IMG/VR virus record: IMGVR_UViG_3300028048_000083
Span: 1 to 59,363 of that record
Direction: 5' to 3' (one strand)
Length of the DNA: 59,363 nt
DNA from: a virus
Lineage: Duplodnaviria; Heunggongvirae; Uroviricota; Caudoviricetes
Positions within the stretch are counted from its first letter, which is position 1; each line of letters opens with the position of its first letter. The notes beneath the pieces were generated by a model. It made no database searches, was not told the origin of the DNA, and saw nothing but the letters and a program-made list of their open reading frames with translations. This document shows positions 27,335 to 50,191 of the stretch, piece by piece. The position numbers were made by a program, and so were the translations under genes.

Positions 27335-27556
27335 ATGGTAGTTTTTGAAATTGAAGGCAATGCCAATGACTTACATGCAATTGAGCATAACGGAAAAATG
27401 GAATCGATAAGCCTGGTGAAACTGAACGGTGACACAGAACCAGATATCGAAATGACAATCTCGTCTTTTAACATTGGATGTGAGGATTTTGAACACAAAC
27501 TGATAAAAGGATTACTGGGTCATAAGATACGTTTTACTGTTGAAACATTAGACTGA
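27335..27556 (+). CDS. hypothetical protein
   Basis: ORF. Confidence 0.7.
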   Translation: MVVFEIEGNANDLHAIEHNGKMESISLVKLNGDTEPDIEMTISSFNIGCEDFEHKLIKGLLGHKIRFTVETLD

Positions 27557-28374
27557 TGAACAATATTGAGATACAAACAAACGCCACATATGCAGTAGGG
27601 GACATACACGGTAATTTCAATTCACTCATATCAATGATTAAACGGTATGGCATAACCGATTCCTGCATTATAGTATGCGGCGATTGCGGCTTAGGGTTTA
27701 ACAAGTGGTCAGCCACGAAAAAGCTTGTTTCAAAACTGGATAAGTTGTGTGTGAAGAACAATATAACCGTCGTTATGGTTCGCGGAAATCACGACGACCC
27801 CGACTTTTTCATTCAAGGCAATCTTACTCCCAGAATTGTGCCTGTACCCGATTACACGGTCATAAACGGTAGTATTCTGTGTATTGGTGGTGCCATTTCA
27901 ATTGACCGTAAATACAGAATGTCGGTCAAAGACAAATACTACCTGGATTATATCAAATACCATCCAGGAGCCAGTCTTGAAACAGCCATCAGTAACACGC
28001 CTAATCTCTACTGGAGCAACGAACCGCCAGTTTATGACGAGGAAAAGTTGGATGAAATCAAGGAGGCTGGGTTAAATATAACGACAGTTTGTACCCATAC
28101 CTGTCCAGGCTTTTGTGACCCAGTGACCAAAGACGGTATTGGGTCATGGCTAAAGGCTGACCCTGAATTAGAGACCGACATTAATGCGGAACGCAAGGTA
28201 ATGGACTTGGTTTATGAAAAACTTATATCGGACGGGCATACGGTGAAAGACTGGATTTATGGTCATTATCACCGCCACAGCATGATGGTTGTTGACAATA
28301 CGCGTTTTTTGATGTTAGGTGCGGTTGTCTGTGAGAACGACAATGTGGATTGGGTTGAAATATTAAGAACTTAA
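27556..28374 (+). CDS. calcineurin-like metallophosphoesterase
   Basis: GDIHG, CGDCG, RGNHD, THTCP, YGHYH. Confidence 0.92.
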   Translation: MNNIEIQTNATYAVGDIHGNFNSLISMIKRYGITDSCIIVCGDCGLGFNKWSATKKLVSKLDKLCVKNNITVVMVRGNHDDPDFFIQGNLTPRIVPVPDYTVINGSILCIGGAISIDRKYRMSVKDKYYLDYIKYHPGASLETAISNTPNLYWSNEPPVYDEEKLDEIKEAGLNITTVCTHTCPGFCDPVTKDGIGSWLKADPELETDINAERKVMDLVYEKLISDGHTVKDWIYGHYHRHSMMVVDNTRFLMLGAVVCENDNVDWVEILRT

Positions 28375-29306: not shown

Positions 29307-30866
29307 ATGTTTACTAAAAGCGAAAATTTTAAAGAGGAGTATTGTGCCCAAATTGTGAAAATCGGTCCACTGGAGCCTATCGAGAATTCAGATTTCCTTG
29401 CACGTACCACAATTAACGGTTTTAATGTTGTTGTGGGTAAGAATGACGTGAAAGAGGGCGACATTATGGTATACGCTAAACTTGAAACTGAGGTTAATAC
29501 TGATTTTCTTTCAGTTAACAATCAGTTTGAGATTGGTGAGCGTCACTTGAATAAGAATTACAATGAGGTTCAGGCCCTTATTGATGAGGGTAAGGATGAT
29601 GAGGCTAAGAAACTTGTTGGTTATTTCAATAAGTATGGCCGTGTCCGCATTGTGAAACTTCGTAAATGTCCGTCAGAGGGTTGTTTGTTCACTGTTGATT
29701 CCCTTGTCAAATGGAAACCAGAGTTGGCAAATTATGACTTTAATCAGTGTTTTATTCCAAATGCTGACGGCGTGGTTGAGCCATTCTGTTTCGATACCAT
29801 CGGTAAAGACCTTTTTGTCAAGGCTTATGTTCCAAGAATTTCAAACCGTGAGCAAACTAGGACTAACAAAGATGCCAAACGTAACCGTCGTTTGAAGAGG
29901 TTTGACCGTATGATTGAGGGTCAGTTCTCATTCCATTACACAACAAACCAACTCCAGGATAATATGTGGCGTATTAATCCAACTACACCAATTTTTGTCT
30001 CAGTTAAGGAACATGGAACAAGTGTGTGTATTGGAAGACTTTTAATTAAAAAGCCGCTTCCCGCTTCACTTCCTCGTAAGATAGAGAATAAGAGGAAAGC
30101 CCGTCAGTTGAGATACCTTTACAAGGCCGAGCGCCGTTTCTACTGGCAGAAGCTCGTTGTGAAAAACAAAATCAATTCAATCAAGAATTATCTCAACAGC
30201 CAGTACACCGTGGATTATGGTAATGTTACATCGTCACGTACTGTAATTAAAAATCGGTATATCAATAATGGGGTGCAACAGCATTTCTACGGTACTGATA
30301 TATGGTCAAAGTATGGTGATTTGATTTATCCGTATTTACTTGATGGTATGACTCTGTATGGTGAAATTTGTGGATATGTTGACGGTTCGCAATCAATGAT
30401 TCAGAAGGGTTATGACTACGGTTGTAAGCCAGGTACCAGTTATTTGATGCCTTATCGTATAACGTTTACTGACCACGAAGGAAATCACACTGAGTGGGAA
30501 CTTAATGAAGTGTTTGGGTGGACTAAGAAATTAATCGAGGAACACCCAGAACTGGCTGATAAAGTACACCCAATAAACATTCTTTATCACGGAACCCTTG
30601 GTGATTTGTATCCTGATATTGACCCGTCTGAGCACTGGAATGAAAACGTTCTTAAGGCTATGGCAGCTGACCATGAGCACTTTGGTATGGAAGAAAACGA
30701 ACCGTTGTGTAAAAACAAGTGTTACAGAGAAGGGATTGTAGTTAGGATTGAAAATGATAAAAATTTTGAGGCATTTAAATTAAAATGTAAAAACTTTTTA
30801 TTTGCGGAGTCAAAACTAATAGATTCTGGAAATATTGATATTGAAATGGAAAATACGTATCAATAA
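29307..30866 (+). CDS. ATP-dependent RNA ligase (DRB0094/Rnl2-like family)
   Basis: N-terminal OB-like module (PIENSD...VVVGK...EGD..VY); nucleotidyltransferase motifs KEHGTS, LYGEI, EGIVVR, AFKLK. Confidence 0.82.
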   Translation: MFTKSENFKEEYCAQIVKIGPLEPIENSDFLARTTINGFNVVVGKNDVKEGDIMVYAKLETEVNTDFLSVNNQFEIGERHLNKNYNEVQALIDEGKDDEAKKLVGYFNKYGRVRIVKLRKCPSEGCLFTVDSLVKWKPELANYDFNQCFIPNADGVVEPFCFDTIGKDLFVKAYVPRISNREQTRTNKDAKRNRRLKRFDRMIEGQFSFHYTTNQLQDNMWRINPTTPIFVSVKEHGTSVCIGRLLIKKPLPASLPRKIENKRKARQLRYLYKAERRFYWQKLVVKNKINSIKNYLNSQYTVDYGNVTSSRTVIKNRYINNGVQQHFYGTDIWSKYGDLIYPYLLDGMTLYGEICGYVDGSQSMIQKGYDYGCKPGTSYLMPYRITFTDHEGNHTEWELNEVFGWTKKLIEEHPELADKVHPINILYHGTLGDLYPDIDPSEHWNENVLKAMAADHEHFGMEENEPLCKNKCYREGIVVRIENDKNFEAFKLKCKNFLFAESKLIDSGNIDIEMENTYQ

Positions 30867-34898: not shown

Positions 34899-36572
34899 AT
34901 GAAATTATTTGAATCAATATTGAATAGCTTGTTGAACGAGTCCTTGGGTGAAGTAATTGTTAACCCAAATGACACATCAAAAAACGTTTTTGATTATAAA
35001 TGCAGGGATAATAATTTGCATATTTTTGCAAATGTCGATAGTGATGATTTGAAAAAAATATCAGAAATTGACCAATCTTTGATTAAAGGTAAATGGGCTA
35101 GAATTATAATACCACTTAAAGATTTACAATCTACCGATTCGGAAGGATATCGAAAATTAAGTAGTTTCTGTGAGATTATAAACAATCTTGGCAAATATGG
35201 TACGTTTACTCCTGAACAATTGATTGATGATGCTGGTCAGTATATAAAGGATAGAGTAAGACCAGAAACAGCAAAAGAGATTACCCAGTCCGAAGACGAA
35301 TTATTTAATGAGCTGATAAATAAGTTCGGCGAACCAAGGATTAAGGAATTACTTCAGTCGTTAAAAAAACACACCAACATACCAGTAAAAGGACTTGACA
35401 ACAATATGAGTGTAAAAAATATAATGCGTATATTATCTCAGGATAGTAAACGCATTGCCGCTGGAAAACCAGCAGCTACATATGTAGCAAAACCAGATGA
35501 TTGGCGTGTATTCAATAGGCAAATCAATAGAGATGCAATGCCGATTTATTTGTGGTATAAGGTGGCTGCAAGTAATCCGTCTGATAAGGCAATTGACCAA
35601 GGAGCAACCAATATTTACGGGTCGGAAAAAGGCAATATACTGAAAGGCAGGACAGCAACACAAACACTTAACGATTTTATGAAAGGCGGGTCAAAAACCC
35701 TTGGCCCAGCAAGAGGATTAAAGTATGCAGCCCAAAAAGTGTGGAATACCAATAATAGATTTGAAATTGGTCCGTATTACGATATAAGCGACACTTCTGT
35801 CATACCAGGTCTCGAAGATAAATTTAACGACCCTGAAAGAATCGGATTCGTCAACAACATAAAGATGGTGCCAACACAAGCATCGCTTAATAAAGTTGTC
35901 AATGATAAAGGACAATCGGTGGAAGATTTGCTAAGGGATGAATTAGGCGGTACTGATGACAAATGCACGATAGATGTATACAATGCGCTTAGAAGGATTT
36001 TCAGGAAACAGGACTCAATACCTGTCGGTCAGGATGGCAAACCTGATATGGACGGTATCAGAAAAAGTGTATATGACACAATTGTCGATTATTTGGCAAA
36101 TAACAATAAAGAAATGGTAAGTTTGTATGCAAAGCCAGAAACCAGGACAGCAATTGCCCAAGTAATCGCTTGCCTTTATATGAGTATTCACCGTATTGCC
36201 CCCGAAATACTCATTAAAACACTTTACGATGGAGTGAATCAGAATGACTTACAACAAGAGGCTGAAAAGGCTAGGTTCACTACCAGAAATGTATATAATT
36301 CATTGGCTAATATGATAGAAGCCGAAGTTTTACGTGGTAATTCCGACGCAACCCAGGTACAGCAAAACAACCAAAGTAATAAGAAAATTATGGAAGAATC
36401 GACGAATAATATGATTGACCCGTTAGATGCAATTAAACGTGCGTGGGGGATAGAAGACAACACCCTGAACAATGCACCAGATGACGGCATTAATTTGACA
36501 AATGAAGAACGTAAGTTGACTGAAGCTAAATTTTACAGCGTGTTAAATAAAATGAATAATACAAAGTTCTAA
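34899..36572 (+). CDS. large late protein with ArdC-N-like ssDNA-binding segment
   Basis: NIMRILSQD...ATYVA...W...R.I...PIYLW and YYDISDT resemble ArdC-N motifs. Confidence 0.5.
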   Translation: MKLFESILNSLLNESLGEVIVNPNDTSKNVFDYKCRDNNLHIFANVDSDDLKKISEIDQSLIKGKWARIIIPLKDLQSTDSEGYRKLSSFCEIINNLGKYGTFTPEQLIDDAGQYIKDRVRPETAKEITQSEDELFNELINKFGEPRIKELLQSLKKHTNIPVKGLDNNMSVKNIMRILSQDSKRIAAGKPAATYVAKPDDWRVFNRQINRDAMPIYLWYKVAASNPSDKAIDQGATNIYGSEKGNILKGRTATQTLNDFMKGGSKTLGPARGLKYAAQKVWNTNNRFEIGPYYDISDTSVIPGLEDKFNDPERIGFVNNIKMVPTQASLNKVVNDKGQSVEDLLRDELGGTDDKCTIDVYNALRRIFRKQDSIPVGQDGKPDMDGIRKSVYDTIVDYLANNNKEMVSLYAKPETRTAIAQVIACLYMSIHRIAPEILIKTLYDGVNQNDLQQEAEKARFTTRNVYNSLANMIEAEVLRGNSDATQVQQNNQSNKKIMEESTNNMIDPLDAIKRAWGIEDNTLNNAPDDGINLTNEERKLTEAKFYSVLNKMNNTKF

Positions 36573-38914: not shown

Positions 38915-39200
38915 TGTAATTCGGAAAAAGTTGTATATTTGAAAACAGAGAGTACATTGAAATAAAAAAAAACAGAAACTTTGCGGAAAATCCGTGGCAC
39001 TTTCGGTTATACATTTGTCTTTTGAAAACAGACAAGGTTTTGGAAAAAAATCGAAAAAAAATATAGCCGTTCACGGAAAAAACAAAAAAGTTTCGGTTAT
39101 ATAAAAGTCTGAACAAAGAGAGAACATTGAAAATTGAGACTTTTGGAAAAATTTTGAAAAATGTTTTTCGTTTTTGGAAAAAAGTTGTATATTTGAAATG
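38915..39200 (+). promoter_or_regulatory. tandem promoter array driving the RNA-gene cluster
   Basis: At least four copies of (C)GGAAAA...(GTTGTATATTTG or TTTCGGTTATA). The same motifs precede many early-type ORFs. Confidence 0.7.
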
Positions 39201-39202
39201 TC

Positions 39203-39263
39203 GGTTCTTTAAAAAGACACGAAGGTTCTTTGACATATTGATGATTGGATACAAATAGGAGAA
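39203..39263 (+). promoter_or_regulatory. boxA-like antitermination leader
   Basis: GTTCTTTAAAA and GTTCTTTGACAT; 35-nt block repeated at 42851-42885 (32/35 identical). Confidence 0.65.
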
Positions 39264-39304
39264 ACAAGACAGGATGACAAGAAATTGCCGCCTGTCTTCA
39301 ATAT

Positions 39305-39377
39305 GCGGACATAGCTCAATGGGTAGAGCGGGAGTTTTCCAAACTTCAGGTTGTGGGTTCGAGCCCCGTTGTCCGCT
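39305..39377 (+). tRNA. tRNA-Gly(TCC)
   Basis: Full cloverleaf; loop TTTCCAA; U73. Confidence 0.92.
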
Positions 39378-39455
39378 CAAGGCGGTTGCCATTGTTTTAG
39401 ACTTCGTAATGGGGGAACACATAAACCCAAAGGATTTTTCTTGGCAGCCAAAATG

Positions 39456-39537
39456 AAACCCGTACAGCAATTGAATTCATTCTTATTCCAAAAAATTGTT
39501 TAACGGAAGAGCGAGACGTAAAACAGCCTGGGTTTTG
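39456..39537 (+). ncRNA. ACAGCAA-stem RNA element E1
   Basis: AAACCC...GGGTTT-TG closing stem; ACAGCAA at 39464. Confidence 0.6.
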
Positions 39538-39542
39538 TATAT

Positions 39543-39629
39543 GGAGGGGTGGCAGAGCGGTTGATTGCAACGGCCTTGAAAACCGTCGACCTCGCAAGGG
39601 GTCCGAGGGTTCGAATCCCTCCCCCTCCG
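39543..39629 (+). tRNA. tRNA-Ser(TGA)
   Basis: Cloverleaf with long variable arm; G73. Confidence 0.92.
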
Positions 39630-39729
39630 CTAAATTTCCTGAACCCACAGTCGTTAAGCGGGCAACGGTCGTCCTTGATGTTGAACCTTCGGTTGGTAAC
39701 GACAGCCGATGCGGAATGCTGATAGGATA

Positions 39730-39807
39730 AGTACGGTCGTCTAGTGGTCTAGGACAGCCCCCTTATCGGGGGGCAGACGTGGTGTTCGAATCCCGTCCGT
39801 AGTTCCA
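39730..39807 (+). tRNA. degenerate tRNA-like gene (8-nt anticodon loop CTTATCGG)
   Basis: D-arm and GC anticodon stem present; T stem imperfect; encoded CCA. Confidence 0.55.
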
Positions 39808-39815
39808 AATCAAAG

Positions 39816-39880
39816 GAAGTCATACAGCAAGCAAAATTAACTCTGAACCATTTCTTTCGGAAAAGTAAATTGACTTCTGA
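39816..39880 (+). ncRNA. ACAGCAA-stem RNA element E2
   Basis: GAAGTCA...TGACTTC-TGA; near copy of E4. Confidence 0.7.
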
Positions 39881-39883
39881 AAT

Positions 39884-39965
39884 GGGTAGGTATACCGTAA
39901 TTGGTAGCGGGCCTGACTGTAAATCAGGTGCTTCGGCTCTGGGGGTTCAAGTCCCTCCCTGCCCA
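39884..39965 (+). tRNA. tRNA-Tyr(GTA)
   Basis: Cloverleaf; CTGTAAA loop. Confidence 0.92.
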
Positions 39966-39970
39966 CAAAA

Positions 39971-40064
39971 CACATCATCATAGTTTAATGTTAGGTACCT
40001 TAGAAAATTTAGAACGCCAGAATGGTAATCTGGAGGTTGCGGTTGGATTCCGTAGTTGATGTGA
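39971..40064 (+). tRNA. tRNA-Thr(GGT)-like gene with ~16-nt D-loop insertion
   Basis: CACATCA/TGATGTG; CCAGA-ATGGTAA-TCTGG; T loop TTGGATT. Confidence 0.55.
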
Positions 40065-40367
40065 CTGATAGAACCTTTTCCTGATAAATCATCAGGTGGC
40101 ATACAAATAAGGCGAAGTCAGTTTTCCTTAACACTTGTTGCACTGATAAAGCCTGATGAATGCTTGGGTGAAAGAATGGGTTAGATTCCCAACTTCTCAA
40201 TCAGCGTATAATGATTGTAGAGACAGTAGTAAGTTAGGTAGTATGACCAACAAGTATTTTTTTTTTAGTTAATAATTAAGTTTTGGTGGTAAACAAAAAA
40301 TAAACCCAAACAGTTAGTCTGTTAGCCAAAGTTGTGGGTTGGACAGCACATCGATAGAAAGATATAG

Positions 40368-40445
40368 TGCGGGGTGGACTGGAGTTGGTTCCAGCTTGGT
40401 CTCATAAGCCAAATCACGGAGGTTCGAATCCTCCCCCCGCTACCA
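40368..40445 (+). tRNA. tRNA-Met(CAT), possibly initiator-type
   Basis: CTCATAA loop, 1:72 mismatch, encoded CCA; lacks the three consecutive G-C anticodon-stem pairs. Confidence 0.85.
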
Positions 40446-40562
40446 AATCTTTTGACAATTTCAATATTCGCGATAAACAATTGTCGAAAGCACACGTATT
40501 TTAACAAGAATATCCCAGAATGGGAAGGTCTAGGTAATCAATCCTTGCGTGTGTAAAAAATT

Positions 40563-40790
40563 AAAGAAAACAGTAGGTGGGCTTGGAAGTAGCCATCCTT
40601 TAAAGAGTGACAGACTGTAACGGAGGACAAAAATCCTGGTGCAATACAAGCTTTAAAAGCCAGGATTCCTTATCGGCAGCAAGTAAACGTGAAACGTGAC
40701 GTGAAACCTATGATTACTACATTGTAAAATGATAATGCTTACCCATAACTAGTAGGCGGTCTTTGGTGTAACAACACACTGGTTTTCTTT
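40563..40790 (+). ncRNA. 23S rRNA H43-H44 (L11/GTPase-associated centre) mimic with internal insertion
   Basis: GGCTTGGAAGTAGCCATCCTTTAAAGAGTG...GTAACAACACACTGG closed by AAAGAAAAC/GTTTTCTTT. Confidence 0.8.
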
Positions 40791-40796
40791 TTTAAT

Positions 40797-40941
40797 GTAT
40801 CTGTGACGGGGAATTGGTATACCCGCGCTTTAAAAGTAGAGACTTCCGTGAAAGACGGATACACATCGTAAAAATTACGGTGAGGTCGAACGGTCATGTA
40901 AATGATGCCAGTTAATGATGGTTCAAATCCATCCAGGTACG
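40797..40941 (+). tRNA. Leu-type tRNA-like gene with greatly expanded anticodon/variable region
   Basis: GTATCTG/CAGGTAC acceptor, GGAATTGGTATA D loop, canonical T arm; anticodon not assignable. Confidence 0.55.
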
Positions 40942-41012
40942 CCCAAAGGCTGTACTGTTAAGCGATTTAGGTGCCAAAGACAATAAGTGTACTGAAACGG
41001 AGCAAAACAGGG

Positions 41013-41235
41013 TTGTAAACAGTTCGTCTAAAGTCTAAGAAATAATATGAACGCCGCAATAAATATCCTCAAAGAGGGGGAAAGAATAATAGGGTCCCGT
41101 AGACCCGAATTCACGCTTGTGGAGAACCCAACCGTGGACGACCGTCAGGCAGAGCCTGACCTAAGAAGCGGTGGTTCGTTGAAACAAGAAGCGGAAACTT
41201 GGGAATCATAAGATTTCATAGGTTTTTGTGTACGG
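41013..41235 (+). mobile_element. minimal non-autonomous IS607-like element retaining the tnpB 3' end / omegaRNA scaffold
   Basis: 41047-41211 encodes NAAINILKEGERIIGSRRPEFTLVENPTVDDR...LRSGGSLKQE, a typical TnpB C-terminal tail. GG at both inferred junctions. Confidence 0.7.
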
Positions 41236-41359
41236 TTTGTCATGTATTGACCATATAAATCATGACCCTATCATCGGTGGAAACGGTGGTCAAAACCAAG
41301 ATGGAGTACTACATCAGCAAGTGAGGGTTTCGAGTTAACGTTAGTAGCTTGCAAATTTT

Positions 41360-41432
41360 GGGAGCATAGCTCAGCTGGTAGAGCGTCGGACTGTTAATCC
41401 GCAGGTCGTAGGTTCGAACCCTACTGCTCCCG
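41360..41432 (+). tRNA. tRNA-Asn(GTT)
   Basis: Canonical cloverleaf. Confidence 0.95.
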
Positions 41433-41440
41433 CAAATTAT

Positions 41441-41507
41441 GGAACCCGTACAGCAAACAATATTTTAGGACCGAACTTTTAATTCGATATTCTACTTTGG
41501 GTTCTGA
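41441..41507 (+). ncRNA. ACAGCAA-stem RNA element E3 with Lys-like anticodon hairpin
   Basis: GGAACCC...GGGTTCT-GA; internal CGAA-CTTTTAA-TTCG. Confidence 0.7.
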
Positions 41508-41536
41508 CGAGAAATTTACCTCGACTTGGCAAGATG

Positions 41537-41601
41537 GAAGTCGTACAGCAAACAAAATTAATTCTGAACCATTTATATCGGAAATGTAAATCGACTTCTG
41601 A
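41537..41601 (+). ncRNA. ACAGCAA-stem RNA element E4
   Basis: GAAGTCG...CGACTTC-TGA; compensatory A-T to G-C change relative to E2. Confidence 0.72.
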
Positions 41602-41678
41602 AAAAAATTAAAAATATTTAAGTTCACAAGCATTATTTTCCACAAATAAGATATTTATATTAAACAATAGTTATAAAT

Positions 41679-42578
41679 ATGCTTAATATAGATATTTCAA
41701 CGGAAGAGAAGCGTAAAGAAACTTTTGAACTTTTTGATAAAATGTTATCAAAAGGAGATATTTTTAAATATTATGGAGTTTCGGATAACACAAAAAATAC
41801 AAATGAATTAAATAGAATTGGTGATATAATAGGTTTTGATTTTTCAATTTATAATAGAAGAAAACATCCAGATAGATTTTGTAAATTATGCGGTAAAAAA
41901 CTTAATTATGGCCAAGATTTATTTTGTTCTAAAAGCTGCTCAGCAAAATATAATAATAAACATCACGTTAGAACCGAAGAAAGTAAACGTAAAACATCTA
42001 AAAGTTTGATTAATTATCACAAAAATAATATAGAAAATAGTGATAAAATATTAATTATAACTGAAGATGGTGATGAAAAGATTTTACATGAACACGTTTG
42101 TGAATGTTGTGGTAAGATTTTCCATAGTAAGAAAAAAAACCGAAAATTCTGTTCTAGAAAATGCTCAGTTAAAAATAGAAGTGATAGATATCGAAACAAT
42201 ATAGATGAATACAAAATATATCATATAGCTTGTGATTTTAAATTTTCGCTAAATGATTATCCTAATGAATTCAATTTTCAGTTGATTGAGGAATATGGGT
42301 GGTATAAAGCAAAAAATCATGGCAACAATTTAAATGGAATAAGTAGAGACCATATATTGTCAGTTCGTGATGGGTTTGAGAATAAAATTGACCCTTATTA
42401 TTTATCTCATCCAGCTAATTGTAATCTTATGATACATAATGATAATATATCAAAACATAAACATTCAGATATTACTTTCGAAGAACTTTTAGAGAGAATA
42501 AAAGAATGGGAAAATAAATATGGCATATATGAAAATAAAATTTCATATGTTGGTATAGAAAGTTTTCAAACAAAATAA
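41679..42578 (+). CDS. His-Me (HNH-like) endonuclease with Zn-finger repeats
   Basis: IDISTEEK N-terminal module; CxxC...FCSxxC repeats; SRDH...HPANC..M.HNDN. Confidence 0.75.
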   Translation: MLNIDISTEEKRKETFELFDKMLSKGDIFKYYGVSDNTKNTNELNRIGDIIGFDFSIYNRRKHPDRFCKLCGKKLNYGQDLFCSKSCSAKYNNKHHVRTEESKRKTSKSLINYHKNNIENSDKILIITEDGDEKILHEHVCECCGKIFHSKKKNRKFCSRKCSVKNRSDRYRNNIDEYKIYHIACDFKFSLNDYPNEFNFQLIEEYGWYKAKNHGNNLNGISRDHILSVRDGFENKIDPYYLSHPANCNLMIHNDNISKHKHSDITFEELLERIKEWENKYGIYENKISYVGIESFQTK

Positions 42579-43356: not shown

Positions 43357-43428
43357 CGAGGATGTAGTGTAATTGGCAACACACGTCATTTGGGATGACG
43401 AGTTGGCGTTCGAGTCGCACATCCTCGA
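43357..43428 (+). tRNA. tRNA-Pro(TGG)
   Basis: CGTCA-TTTGGGA-TGACG; T stem imperfect. Confidence 0.8.
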
Positions 43429-47386: not shown

Positions 47387-47509
47387 TGGGAAGTCGTCTA
47401 GTGGTAGGACGCGGATAAATGGTGACTTTTGGTTATGAAAGTCGGACAGCAATTGATTCTATACATGCTTTGGGTGCCCGTTACGCTGGTTCGAATCCAG
47501 CCTTCCCAG
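47387..47509 (+). tRNA. tRNA-Pro(TGG) with 52-nt insertion at 29/30
   Basis: CGG[47415-47466]GC-TTTGGGT-GCCCG; removal gives a perfect 5-bp stem. Confidence 0.85.
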
Positions 47510-50063: not shown

Positions 50064-50191
50064 GGACAGGTAGCTCAGTTGGTTTAGAGCGACGTAATGA
50101 ATGACTTTTGGCGATTGAAAGTCGTACAGCAATTAATAAAATTCTATGGTCACCAACCCGTAGGTCGGAGGTTCGAATCCTTCCCTGCCCT
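50064..50191 (+). tRNA. tRNA-Gly(ACC) with 53-nt insertion at 29/30
   Basis: ACG[50095-50147]GG-TCACCAA-CCCGT; U73; atypical C33. Confidence 0.75.

What the first reader, a model, noticed from the sequence alone, without database searches (positions are those of the whole stretch)
39456..41601. Four free-standing ACAGCAA-stem RNAs are circular permutations of the tRNA inserts and carry anticodon-like hairpins
Seen: E1 (39456), E2 (39816), E3 (41441) and E4 (41537) share the layout closing-stem 5' strand, (T)ACAGCAA, A/T linker, internal region, closing-stem 3' strand, TG(A). E2 and E4 differ by a compensatory pair (GAAGTCA/TGACTTC vs GAAGTCG/CGACTTC). Joining the ends of E2/E4 gives the order seen in the tRNA inserts (GACTTY-TG...GAA(A)GTC-NN-ACAGCAA). 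ACAGCAA lies ~15-25 nt 5' of an anticodon loop or anticodon-like loop in all six cases: Lys-like CTTTTAA in E3, TTCCAAA in E1, TCGGAAA in E2/E4, and the real Pro/Gly loops in the inserts. Inference: ACAGCAA plus stem is a protein-binding tag presenting an anticodon loop, e.g. decoys for host anticodon nucleases or substrates/guides for an RNA-repair complex. From memory, similar ACAGCAA stems occur near Ro60/TROVE genes (Y-RNA/YrlA-like); no such gene is in this window and the link is unverified.
Basis: partly seen in the sequence, partly recalled or inferred. Interest (0 to 1): 0.85.

Follow-up and report, generated by a model that had tools for sequence, protein, structure and literature searches.

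The report
Phage Y-RNA-like small RNAs, ACAGCAA handle
Four small RNA genes in this rumen megaphage's tRNA array share a covarying clamp helix followed by unpaired UACAGCAA, a tag that in many unrelated phages lies beside a Ro60-shaped protein gene, so they are most likely an uncatalogued type of Y-RNA-like partner RNA.

Summary
The four elements exist as described: E1 39455-39537, E2 39815-39879, E3 41441-41506, E4 41536-41600, all on the + strand. Each has a 7-8 bp closing stem, N-UACAGCAA, a variable interior and a 3' UG.

A covariance model found 49 distinct relatives in large phage contigs, mostly 4-10 nt from tRNA genes. The stem covaries strongly. Interiors vary: short hairpins (six with the Lys-like loop CUUUUAA, as in E3), T-arm hairpins, or whole circularly permuted tRNA mimics. 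Two window tRNAs carry the same module as an insert at nt 29/30, so the permutation idea holds. The anticodon-like loop holds for E3 only.

This genome encodes a DUF2828/DUF7788 protein 4.2 kb past the window end, and its predicted fold matches Ro60. In 11 cultured phages with a homologue, 21 handles lie near the gene on its strand and none on the other.

Best reading (about 0.6): Y-RNA-like partners of a phage Ro60-like protein. Binding and function were not tested. The handle differs from the known Ro-binding motif (GNCGAA) and matches the hallmark of Dictyostelium Class I RNAs.

This scan has found the same family before on other DNA. I found no paper describing it.

The parts
39455..39537 (+). 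E1, 83 nt. 5' strand 39455-39461, UACAGCAA 39463-39470, interior 39471-39529, 3' strand 39530-39536, G 39537. It ends 5 nt before tRNA-Ser.
   Evidence: (43.8 bits). A relative, L155:2208-2299, has GAAAGCC/GGCUUU, which is a compensatory change. Exact-match contigs from rumen RNA libraries cover it.
39815..39879 (+). E2, 65 nt. 5' strand 39815-39822, UACAGCAA 39823-39830, inner hairpin UCUGAA/UUCGGA, 3' strand 39871-39878, G 39879. It starts 10 nt after a tRNA-like gene and ends 4 nt before tRNA-Tyr.
   Evidence: (68.2 bits). An RNA-library contig spans 39646-39874 with no differences.
41441..41506 (+). E3, 66 nt. 5' strand 41441-41447, UACAGCAA 41449-41456, Lys-like stem-loop 41472-41486 (CGAA-CUUUUAA-UUCG) nested in AGGA/UUCU, 3' strand 41499-41505, G 41506. 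It starts 7 nt after tRNA-Asn.
   Evidence: (57.5 bits).
41536..41600 (+). E4, 65 nt. 5' strand 41536-41543, UACAGCAA 41544-41551, inner hairpin 41562-41583 (loop ACCAUUUAUA), 3' strand 41592-41599, G 41600.
   Evidence: (74.7 bits). It is the best Rfam Dicty_Class_I_RNA match at 30.3 bits. A near-identical copy occurs in a 245-kb relative.
47415..47466 (+). The same handle in permuted (hairpin) topology, as a 52-nt insert between nt 29 and 30 of a tRNA-Pro(UGG)-shaped gene (47387-47509). Hairpin 47423-47444, GACAGCAA 47445-47452.
   Evidence: (tRNA model, 3-bp anticodon stem around a 63-nt insertion). Two uninterrupted tRNA-Pro(UGG) genes exist at 43357 and 44788.
50095..50147 (+). The same handle as a 53-nt insert at nt 29/30 of a Gly(ACC)-like tRNA-shaped gene (50064-50191). 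Hairpin 50102-50124, UACAGCAA 50125-50132. The loop UCACCAA has C in place of the near-universal U33.

Best explanation
E1-E4 are small non-coding RNAs cut out of the phage's long tRNA-array transcript. They belong to a large, apparently undescribed phage RNA family.

The family is defined by a 'handle': a 7-8 bp helix that clamps the two ends, an unpaired N-UACAGCAA directly after the 5' strand, and a 3' UG.

The handle is most likely the binding site for the phage's own Ro60-shaped protein (DUF2828/DUF7788; G000:63530-64978, minus strand). That would make these RNAs functional counterparts of Y RNAs.

The variable interior is cargo displayed on the ring protein. It can be a short hairpin (E1, E2, E4), a tRNA-Lys-like anticodon stem-loop (E3), a T-arm, or a whole tRNA body. 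When the handle sprouts from nt 29/30 of the anticodon stem, the result is either the window's two 'intron' tRNAs or, in relatives, circularly permuted YrlA-like tRNA mimics.

By analogy with Ro60/Y RNA, the RNP would tether or gate RNA-processing, repair or decay enzymes. It might alternatively offer tRNA look-alikes to host tRNA-directed nucleases.

Shown here: family membership, stem covariation, the three topologies, the Ro60 fold of the protein, and the gene-RNA neighbourhood in many phages.
Inferred: binding, processing sites and function.
For: 1. Family and structure. A model built from 18 members finds 3-6 copies in each of five large phage records and 49 distinct sequences. In the closing helix, 94.6% of cells are paired against 79% in shuffles. 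It has 64 double-change cells against 20, and 7 of 8 pairs have changes on both sides. Slid controls pair 40-53%.

2. Setting. Members sit 4-10 nt from flanking tRNAs, on the tRNA strand.

3. Partner gene. DUF2828 matches occur in 4 of the 5 handle-bearing records, including this genome. Pfam confirms DUF2828 plus DUF7788. The AlphaFold model has pLDDT 85.6 and pTM 0.86. Its 13 best PDB matches are all Ro60, Rsr or phage phiLo Ro60 (E 2e-8 to 2e-5, TM up to 0.56, full length). The Swiss-Prot models give the same result.

4. Reverse test. tblastn finds homologues in 706 cultured-phage records. In 11 of them (Felix O1, Campylobacter, Listeria P100, Staphylococcus, Enterococcus, mycobacteriophage, Sinorhizobium and others), the gene plus 4-6 kb on each side holds 21 stem+ACAGCAA handles on the gene's strand and 0 on the other. 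Shuffles give 3.4 for both strands together. Lak-B5 has a model hit 80 nt upstream of its gene.

5. Control. In five tRNA-rich large phages without a homologue, the model hit 1 of 5 at E<=0.1. It hit 8 of 10 homologue-bearing phages.

6. Y-RNA likeness. Long family members with tRNA cargo give full-length sub-threshold YrlA matches of 30-47 bits.

7. Evidence that the insert-bearing tRNAs are not decoders. The Pro copy is a third, redundant gene. The Gly-like loop has C33.
Against: - No binding, expression boundary or phenotype was measured.
- In this genome the protein gene is about 22 kb from E1-E4 and on the opposite strand. Adjacency holds only in relatives.
- One handle-bearing record (G001, 69% complete) shows no DUF2828 gene.
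- Pfam TROVE itself does not match in any of the five records.
- The handle lacks the GNCGAA/CGAA motif that known Ro60 proteins contact (PMC4201824, PMC12135203), so 'binds like a Y RNA' is analogy.
- The control sample is small (8/10 against 1/5).
- The model alignment is fitted to the helix, which inflates pairing counts somewhat.
- RNA-library contigs over E1 and E2 are low depth and could be DNA carry-over.
Confidence: 0.6

Rival explanations
1. The handle is a processing or splicing signal, a bacterial or phage analogue of the bulge-helix-bulge motif. An endonuclease and a ligase would remove it. The insert-bearing and permuted genes would then mature into working tRNAs, and the free-standing elements would release or circularise a mini-RNA.
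For: - The handle sits at the same tRNA position (nt 29/30, once 28/29) in the insert topology and in the permuted topology.
- Removing it restores a perfect 5-bp anticodon stem.
- The genome carries Rnl2-type RNA ligase and phosphoesterase genes.
Against: - The restored stem can equally form as a three-way junction without any cutting.
- The Gly-like loop has C33, and the Pro copy is redundant.
- In relatives the permuted 'acceptor' is closed by a 4-nt UACG loop, and the RNA scores as YrlA-like.
- The splice-site flanks can form at most 3 bp, so there is no bulge-helix-bulge by inspection.
- No RtcB and no splicing endonuclease was found.
- Most family members carry no tRNA at all.
Confidence: 0.12
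2. The RNAs act independently of the Ro60-like protein. They would be stand-alone decoys or sponges for a host factor, such as an anticodon nuclease aimed at tRNA-Lys(UUU) or an RRM-type RNA-binding protein. The handle would serve only as a stabilising clamp or as that factor's site.
For: - Lys-like CUUUUAA loops recur in six members from five phage records, 14-22 nt after ACAGCAA.
- Dictyostelium Class I RNAs, which share the handle, bind an RRM protein (PMC7919456).
- In this genome the Ro-like gene is not adjacent.
Against: - Two thirds of members have no anticodon-like loop.
- It does not explain the tight, strand-specific neighbourhood with DUF2828 genes across Proteobacteria, Firmicutes, Actinobacteria and Campylobacter phages.
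Confidence: 0.15
3. The elements are decaying relics of tRNA genes or of a small mobile element, or a DNA-level signal such as a promoter, an operator or a homing-endonuclease site. In this reading they have no RNA function.
For: - HNH and LAGLIDADG homing-endonuclease genes are interleaved with the array.
- An extra copy of the 3' strand lies just upstream of E4.
- Cargo is very variable.
Against: - Compensatory changes keep the helix in 49 distinct sequences while the motif stays invariant.
- Orientation always follows the tRNAs.
- The same design persists in phages of unrelated hosts.
Confidence: 0.05

Closest known systems
Bacterial and phage Y RNAs bound by Ro60/Rsr: YrlA/YrlB (Rfam RF02553; Chen et al. 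2014, PMC4201824) and phiLo Yrl1/Yrl2 (PMC12135203)
   Same: - Small RNAs whose ends are clamped by a stem.
- Encoded in one or several copies beside a ring-shaped Ro60-fold protein.
- Often carry a tRNA-like module whose 'anticodon stem' continues into the stem.
- Found in phages.
   Different: - The conserved element is unpaired UACAGCAA after the 5' strand, not GNCGAA/CGAA in a bulged helix.
- E1-E4 give no Rfam Y_RNA or YrlA hit.
- The protein is DUF2828/DUF7788, not Pfam TROVE.
- Copies are many and are embedded in tRNA arrays.
- Cargo ranges from a bare hairpin to a whole tRNA.
- The handle can also sit inside an otherwise normal tRNA gene.
Class I RNAs of dictyostelid social amoebae (Rfam RF01414; Kjellin et al. 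2021, PMC7919456)
   Same: [quoted passage not shown]
- The unpaired motif CCUUACAGCAA sits directly after the 5' strand.
- An A/U-rich variable rest and a 3' CUG.
- All nine RF01414 matches found in 84 kb searched fall on handle elements.
   Different: - Scores are 22.6-30.3 bits, below the gathering score of 41.5.
- 8 of the 11 motif letters match.
- These are phage genes processed from tRNA arrays, not amoebal genes with DUSE promoters.
- The published partner of Class I RNA is an RRM protein.
- The paper reports the class as unique to Dictyostelia.
Permuted and intron-bearing tRNA genes processed through bulge-helix-bulge motifs (archaea, Cyanidioschyzon; reviewed in PMC4090602)
   Same: One RNA module occurs both as an insert and as the leader-trailer helix of circularly permuted tRNA-shaped genes.
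   Different: - No bulge-helix-bulge motif.
- The position is 29/30, inside the anticodon stem.
- A bacterial virus with no splicing endonuclease found.
- Most members contain no tRNA.

Membership tests
Y RNA / YrlA (Rfam RF00019, RF02553) | Reaches the Rfam gathering score | tested here: not met
   No Y_RNA or YrlA match on E1-E4 at E up to 5-10. Long relatives reach 30-47 bits against a gathering score of 69.
Y RNA / YrlA (Rfam RF00019, RF02553) | Ro-binding stem with GNCGAA/CGAA (PMC4201824, PMC12135203) | tested here: not met
   The conserved element is UACAGCAA. The CGAA in E3 lies in the inner hairpin and is not conserved in relatives.
Y RNA / YrlA (Rfam RF00019, RF02553) | Encoded with a Ro60 orthologue | tested here: met
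   A Ro60-fold DUF2828/DUF7788 gene is in the same genome. It is adjacent in 9 of the 11 cultured phages by the motif scan, and in Lak-B5 by the model. Caveat: the protein does not match Pfam TROVE.
Y RNA / YrlA (Rfam RF00019, RF02553) | Physically bound by the Ro60 protein | not testable with these tools
   No protein-RNA assay or co-fold is available here.
Dictyostelium Class I RNA (Rfam RF01414) | Reaches the gathering score of 41.5 bits | tested here: not met
   E4 30.3, E1 26.7, E3 25.9, E2 22.6 bits. All are full-length alignments.
Dictyostelium Class I RNA (Rfam RF01414) | Short terminal stem, 5' G, and the 11-nt motif CCUUACAGCAA next to the 5' strand | tested here: inconclusive
   The stem, the 5' G and the 3' (C/U)UG are present. 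8 of the 11 motif letters (UACAGCAA) are identical (PMC7919456).
Dictyostelium Class I RNA (Rfam RF01414) | Dictyostelid gene with an upstream DUSE promoter | tested here: not met
   This is a phage record. The elements lie 4-10 nt from tRNA genes.
Bulge-helix-bulge tRNA introns / permuted tRNAs | Two 3-nt bulges around a 4-bp helix at the exon-intron junctions | tested here: inconclusive
   By inspection, the junction flanks of 47415-47466 and 50095-50147 can form at most 3 bp. No dedicated search was run.
Ro60/TROVE proteins (for the partner P0001) | HEAT-repeat ring plus vWA domain | tested here: met
   Foldseek gives Ro60, Rsr and phiLo Ro60 as the top 13 PDB hits, full length. Ro60 proteins from five species rank first in the Swiss-Prot models. 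Sequence-level TROVE is not matched.

The most novel reading that the evidence does not exclude
The stem-UACAGCAA handle may be the cognate ligand of the whole DUF2828/DUF7788 branch of Ro60-like proteins, which also occurs in giant viruses and eukaryotes. If so, the unexplained Class I RNAs of social amoebae would be Y-type RNAs of an amoebal member of that branch. Phages would use the same RNP, loaded with tRNA parts such as the tRNA-Lys anticodon arm, to counter host tRNA-cleaving defences.
Probability: 0.15. Interest if true: 0.85.

Novelty: new variant of a known kind. Interest (0 to 1): 0.6.

Why it matters
Ro60-like DUF2828 genes occur in hundreds of cultured phages, including Felix O1, Listeria P100 and the Lak megaphages, and have no assigned RNA partner. 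A recognisable handle would give these proteins candidate ligands. It would also reinterpret many odd 'tRNAs with introns' and 'permuted tRNAs' in phage annotations as non-decoding mimics. It extends the Ro60/Y RNA idea to a second recognition code. The identity of the handle with the hallmark of Dictyostelium Class I RNAs, whose mechanism is unknown, gives a concrete hypothesis to test in that system.

Tried and rejected
- The 14-base pattern GAAGTCNTACAGCAA in viral contigs returned mostly chance matches. Only those with the closing strand were real.
- The insert-type pattern GAAAGTCGNACAGCAATT gave three hits, all in coding-like sequence with no tRNA context.
- My first reading, a splicing signal for permuted and intron-bearing tRNAs, was demoted after the Ro60-like gene, the YrlA-like scores, the C33 loop and the redundant Pro copy came to light.
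- Pfam TROVE and RtcB: no match in the five handle-bearing records.
- Contigs from four rumen RNA libraries were laid on 39250-41650. No cover over E3 or E4, no joints, and no ends can be read from contigs.
- No insert-type handle was found in the other loci fetched.
- My strict Python handle scanner missed E1, E3 and E4 through greedy G-U extension, so whole-genome counts rest on the covariance model instead.
- Whether Dictyostelium has a DUF2828 protein could not be settled. AlphaFold cluster hits hide organisms, and Atlas clusters are viral.
- Literature searches for ACAGCAA, DUF2828, and permuted tRNA in phages found nothing relevant.
Full report
**Where the window lies.** The window is the first 59 kb of a 123-kb IMG/VR virus record judged about one third complete. 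It shows weak DNA similarity to the Prevotella Lak megaphages. From 39.3 to 57.3 kb it carries an array of about 30 tRNA or tRNA-like genes, a permuted tmRNA and a suppressor tRNA, all on the + strand. Homing-endonuclease genes are interleaved with the array. Two copies of a 17-mer containing a Bacteroidota-type TAnnTTTG box precede it.

**The observation.** Each has a 7-8 bp helix joining the ends, then one spacer base (none in E2 and E4 if their innermost pair forms), then UACAGCAA. A variable interior follows, then the 3' strand and a final G. Every element ends in UG, and the U of that UG can pair with the first G of the element.
- E1 ends 5 nt before tRNA-Ser.
- E2 lies 10 nt after a tRNA-like gene and 4 nt before tRNA-Tyr.
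- E3 starts 7 nt after tRNA-Asn.
- E4 follows E3 by 29 nt.

A full-model scan finds only these four in the window.

**A real RNA family.** A pattern search of viral contigs gave 22 loci. About 15 of them lie between tRNA genes of 90-245 kb phage contigs. A covariance model built from 18 sequences found 3-6 copies in each of five large phage records and 49 distinct sequences overall. These include stems my pattern could not have selected: GAAGCC/GGCUUC, GAAGAC/GUCUUC, GAAAUC/GAUUUC, GAAUGG/CCAUUC, GAUAAC/GUUAUC and AGUCUC/GAGACU.

The helix is paired in 94.6% of cells, against 79% in shuffles and 40-53% when slid. It has 64 double-change cells against 20 in shuffles. The E2/E4 A-U versus G-C difference is real. 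That innermost position pairs in only 31 of 49 members, so the core is the outer seven pairs.

**Cargo and topology.** Interiors differ widely.
- Seventeen of 49 members hold a 7-nt Y-U-NNN-R-N loop on a stem of at least 4 bp. Shuffles give a mean of 3.2 and a maximum of 9. Some of these are T-loops.
- Six members from five phage records, E3 among them, have CUUUUAA, the tRNA-Lys(UUU) loop, 14-22 nt after ACAGCAA.
- Others carry T-arm hairpins.
- Three carry a whole tRNA in permuted order: nt 30 to the 3' acceptor strand, a short linker, then the 5' acceptor strand to nt 29. The handle forms the leader-trailer helix.

The window's tRNA-Pro(UGG) and Gly(ACC)-like genes carry the same handle closed into a hairpin, as an insert at nt 29/30.

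The claim that all six cases present an anticodon-like loop is not correct. E2 and E4 fold as UCUGA/UCGGA with a 10-nt loop, and a relative keeps that hairpin through a compensatory change. E1 has nothing of the kind.

**The partner.** My first reading was a splicing signal. Earlier notes of this scan pointed instead to a Ro60-like protein, and I tested that myself.
- Pfam TROVE finds nothing in the five handle-bearing records.
- DUF2828 matches in four of the five. In this genome it matches a 482-aa ORF at G000:63530-64978 on the minus strand, 4.2 kb past the window end. Pfam calls it DUF2828 plus DUF7788.
- An AlphaFold model built from 39 homologues has pLDDT 85.6 and pTM 0.86.
- Its 13 best PDB matches are Xenopus and human Ro60, Deinococcus Rsr and Thermus phage phiLo Ro60, all full length. 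Ro60 proteins also lead the Swiss-Prot models.

**The reverse test.** tblastn finds homologues in 706 cultured-phage records. I fetched the gene with 4-6 kb of flank from 11 phages of very different hosts.
- A simple scan found 21 stem+ACAGCAA handles on the gene's strand and none on the opposite strand. Shuffled sequence gives 3.4 for both strands together.
- Felix O1 has four, just downstream of ORF86. Campylobacter CJLB-7 has two, just upstream. Mycobacteriophage Archie has three, just downstream of its 'Ro-like RNA binding protein'. Listeria P100, a Staphylococcus phage and an Enterococcus phage each have two or three.
- Lak-B5 has a model hit 80 nt upstream of its gene.
- In five tRNA-rich large phages without a homologue, the model hit one of five at E<=0.1. 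It hit eight of ten homologue-bearing phages. This is a small sample but points the expected way.

**Comparison with known families.** Known Ro60 ligands use GNCGAA or CGAA (PMC4201824, PMC12135203). E1-E4 lack this motif and give no Rfam Y_RNA or YrlA match. The long, tRNA-bearing relatives do give full-length YrlA alignments at 30-47 bits, below the gathering score of 69.

The only Rfam family that touches E1-E4 is Dicty_Class_I_RNA, at 22.6-30.3 bits against a gathering score of 41.5. It has the same architecture and eight identical motif letters. All nine such hits in 84 kb fall on handle elements, including one in Listeria P100. The Class I paper reports that class as unique to Dictyostelia and of unknown mechanism. 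I found no paper on the ACAGCAA handle, on DUF2828 function, or on permuted tRNAs in phages.

**Expression.** Exact-match contigs from rumen metatranscriptome libraries of two studies cover E1 (39396-39552 and 39391-39648) and E2 (39646-39874). They run on into the neighbouring tRNA genes and are at low depth. This is compatible with a precursor transcript, but it does not prove transcription and shows no ends.

**Verdict.** The best reading is Y-RNA-like partner RNAs of a phage Ro60-like protein, with the handle as the binding site and the interior as displayed cargo (confidence about 0.6). Three points argue against the splicing rival for the insert-bearing tRNAs:
- The Pro gene is a third, redundant copy.
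- The Gly-like loop has C33.
- Permuted relatives close their 'acceptor' with a UACG loop and look like YrlA.

The recurrent tRNA-Lys loop, together with nearby ligase and phosphoesterase genes, makes a role in conflicts over tRNA cleavage attractive, but this is untested.

This scan has found the same family repeatedly on other DNA. What this window adds is both topologies (free-standing and tRNA insert) in one genome, the Lys-loop cargo class, and a case where the protein gene is not adjacent.

Noticed in passing
window 41520-41543: Ten nt upstream of E4 lies a second copy of the 3'-strand word (CGACUU). It can pair with E4's 5' strand and reproduce the hairpin-plus-ACAGCAA topology of the tRNA inserts. 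It could be an alternative fold or a trace of how the two topologies interconvert.
   Followed up: partly
window 38928-38944 and 39182-39198: An exact 17-mer, AAGTTGTATATTTGAAA, occurs twice just ahead of the RNA array (0.15 matches expected by chance). It contains a TAnnTTTG box like the Bacteroidota -7 promoter element.
   Followed up: no
window 39730-39804: A tRNA-shaped gene just below the Rfam threshold (27.4 bits against 29), with an oversized anticodon loop. It lies directly upstream of E2.
   Followed up: no
window 40575-40609: High-depth RNA-library contigs from other organisms match only these 35 nt and then diverge. This fits a conserved rRNA-like segment embedded in the spacer, which another first-stage note calls a 23S GTPase-centre mimic.
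   Followed up: partly
window 41050-41191: A non-coding stretch about 77% identical to Prevotella Lak-A1 and Lak-C1 phages. It is the only non-tRNA part of 39200-41700 conserved at the DNA level.
   Followed up: no
L181 (Listeria phage P100) 2000-2551: A near-threshold ROOL RNA match (86 bits, gathering score 99.1) lies about 650 nt upstream of the handle RNAs and the DUF2828 gene gp165.
   Followed up: no
L185 (Enterococcus phage phiSHEF16) 283-633 and 3357-3657: A full tmRNA and two sub-threshold YrlA-like RNAs (34 and 47 bits) sit upstream of the DUF2828 gene, overlapping or beside the handle elements.
   Followed up: partly
window 27556-28374 and 29307-30866: A metallophosphoesterase ORF, and an ORF with a PHA02142 OB-fold plus a weak RNA-ligase match, lie 9-12 kb upstream of the RNA array. 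A clear Rnl2-type ligase is at G000:111960-112607.
   Followed up: partly
window, whole: 17 of the 19 ACAGCAA occurrences are on the + strand, and many fall inside ORFs (for example 35268-36365). This is probably a codon-usage effect and unrelated to the handle.
   Followed up: no
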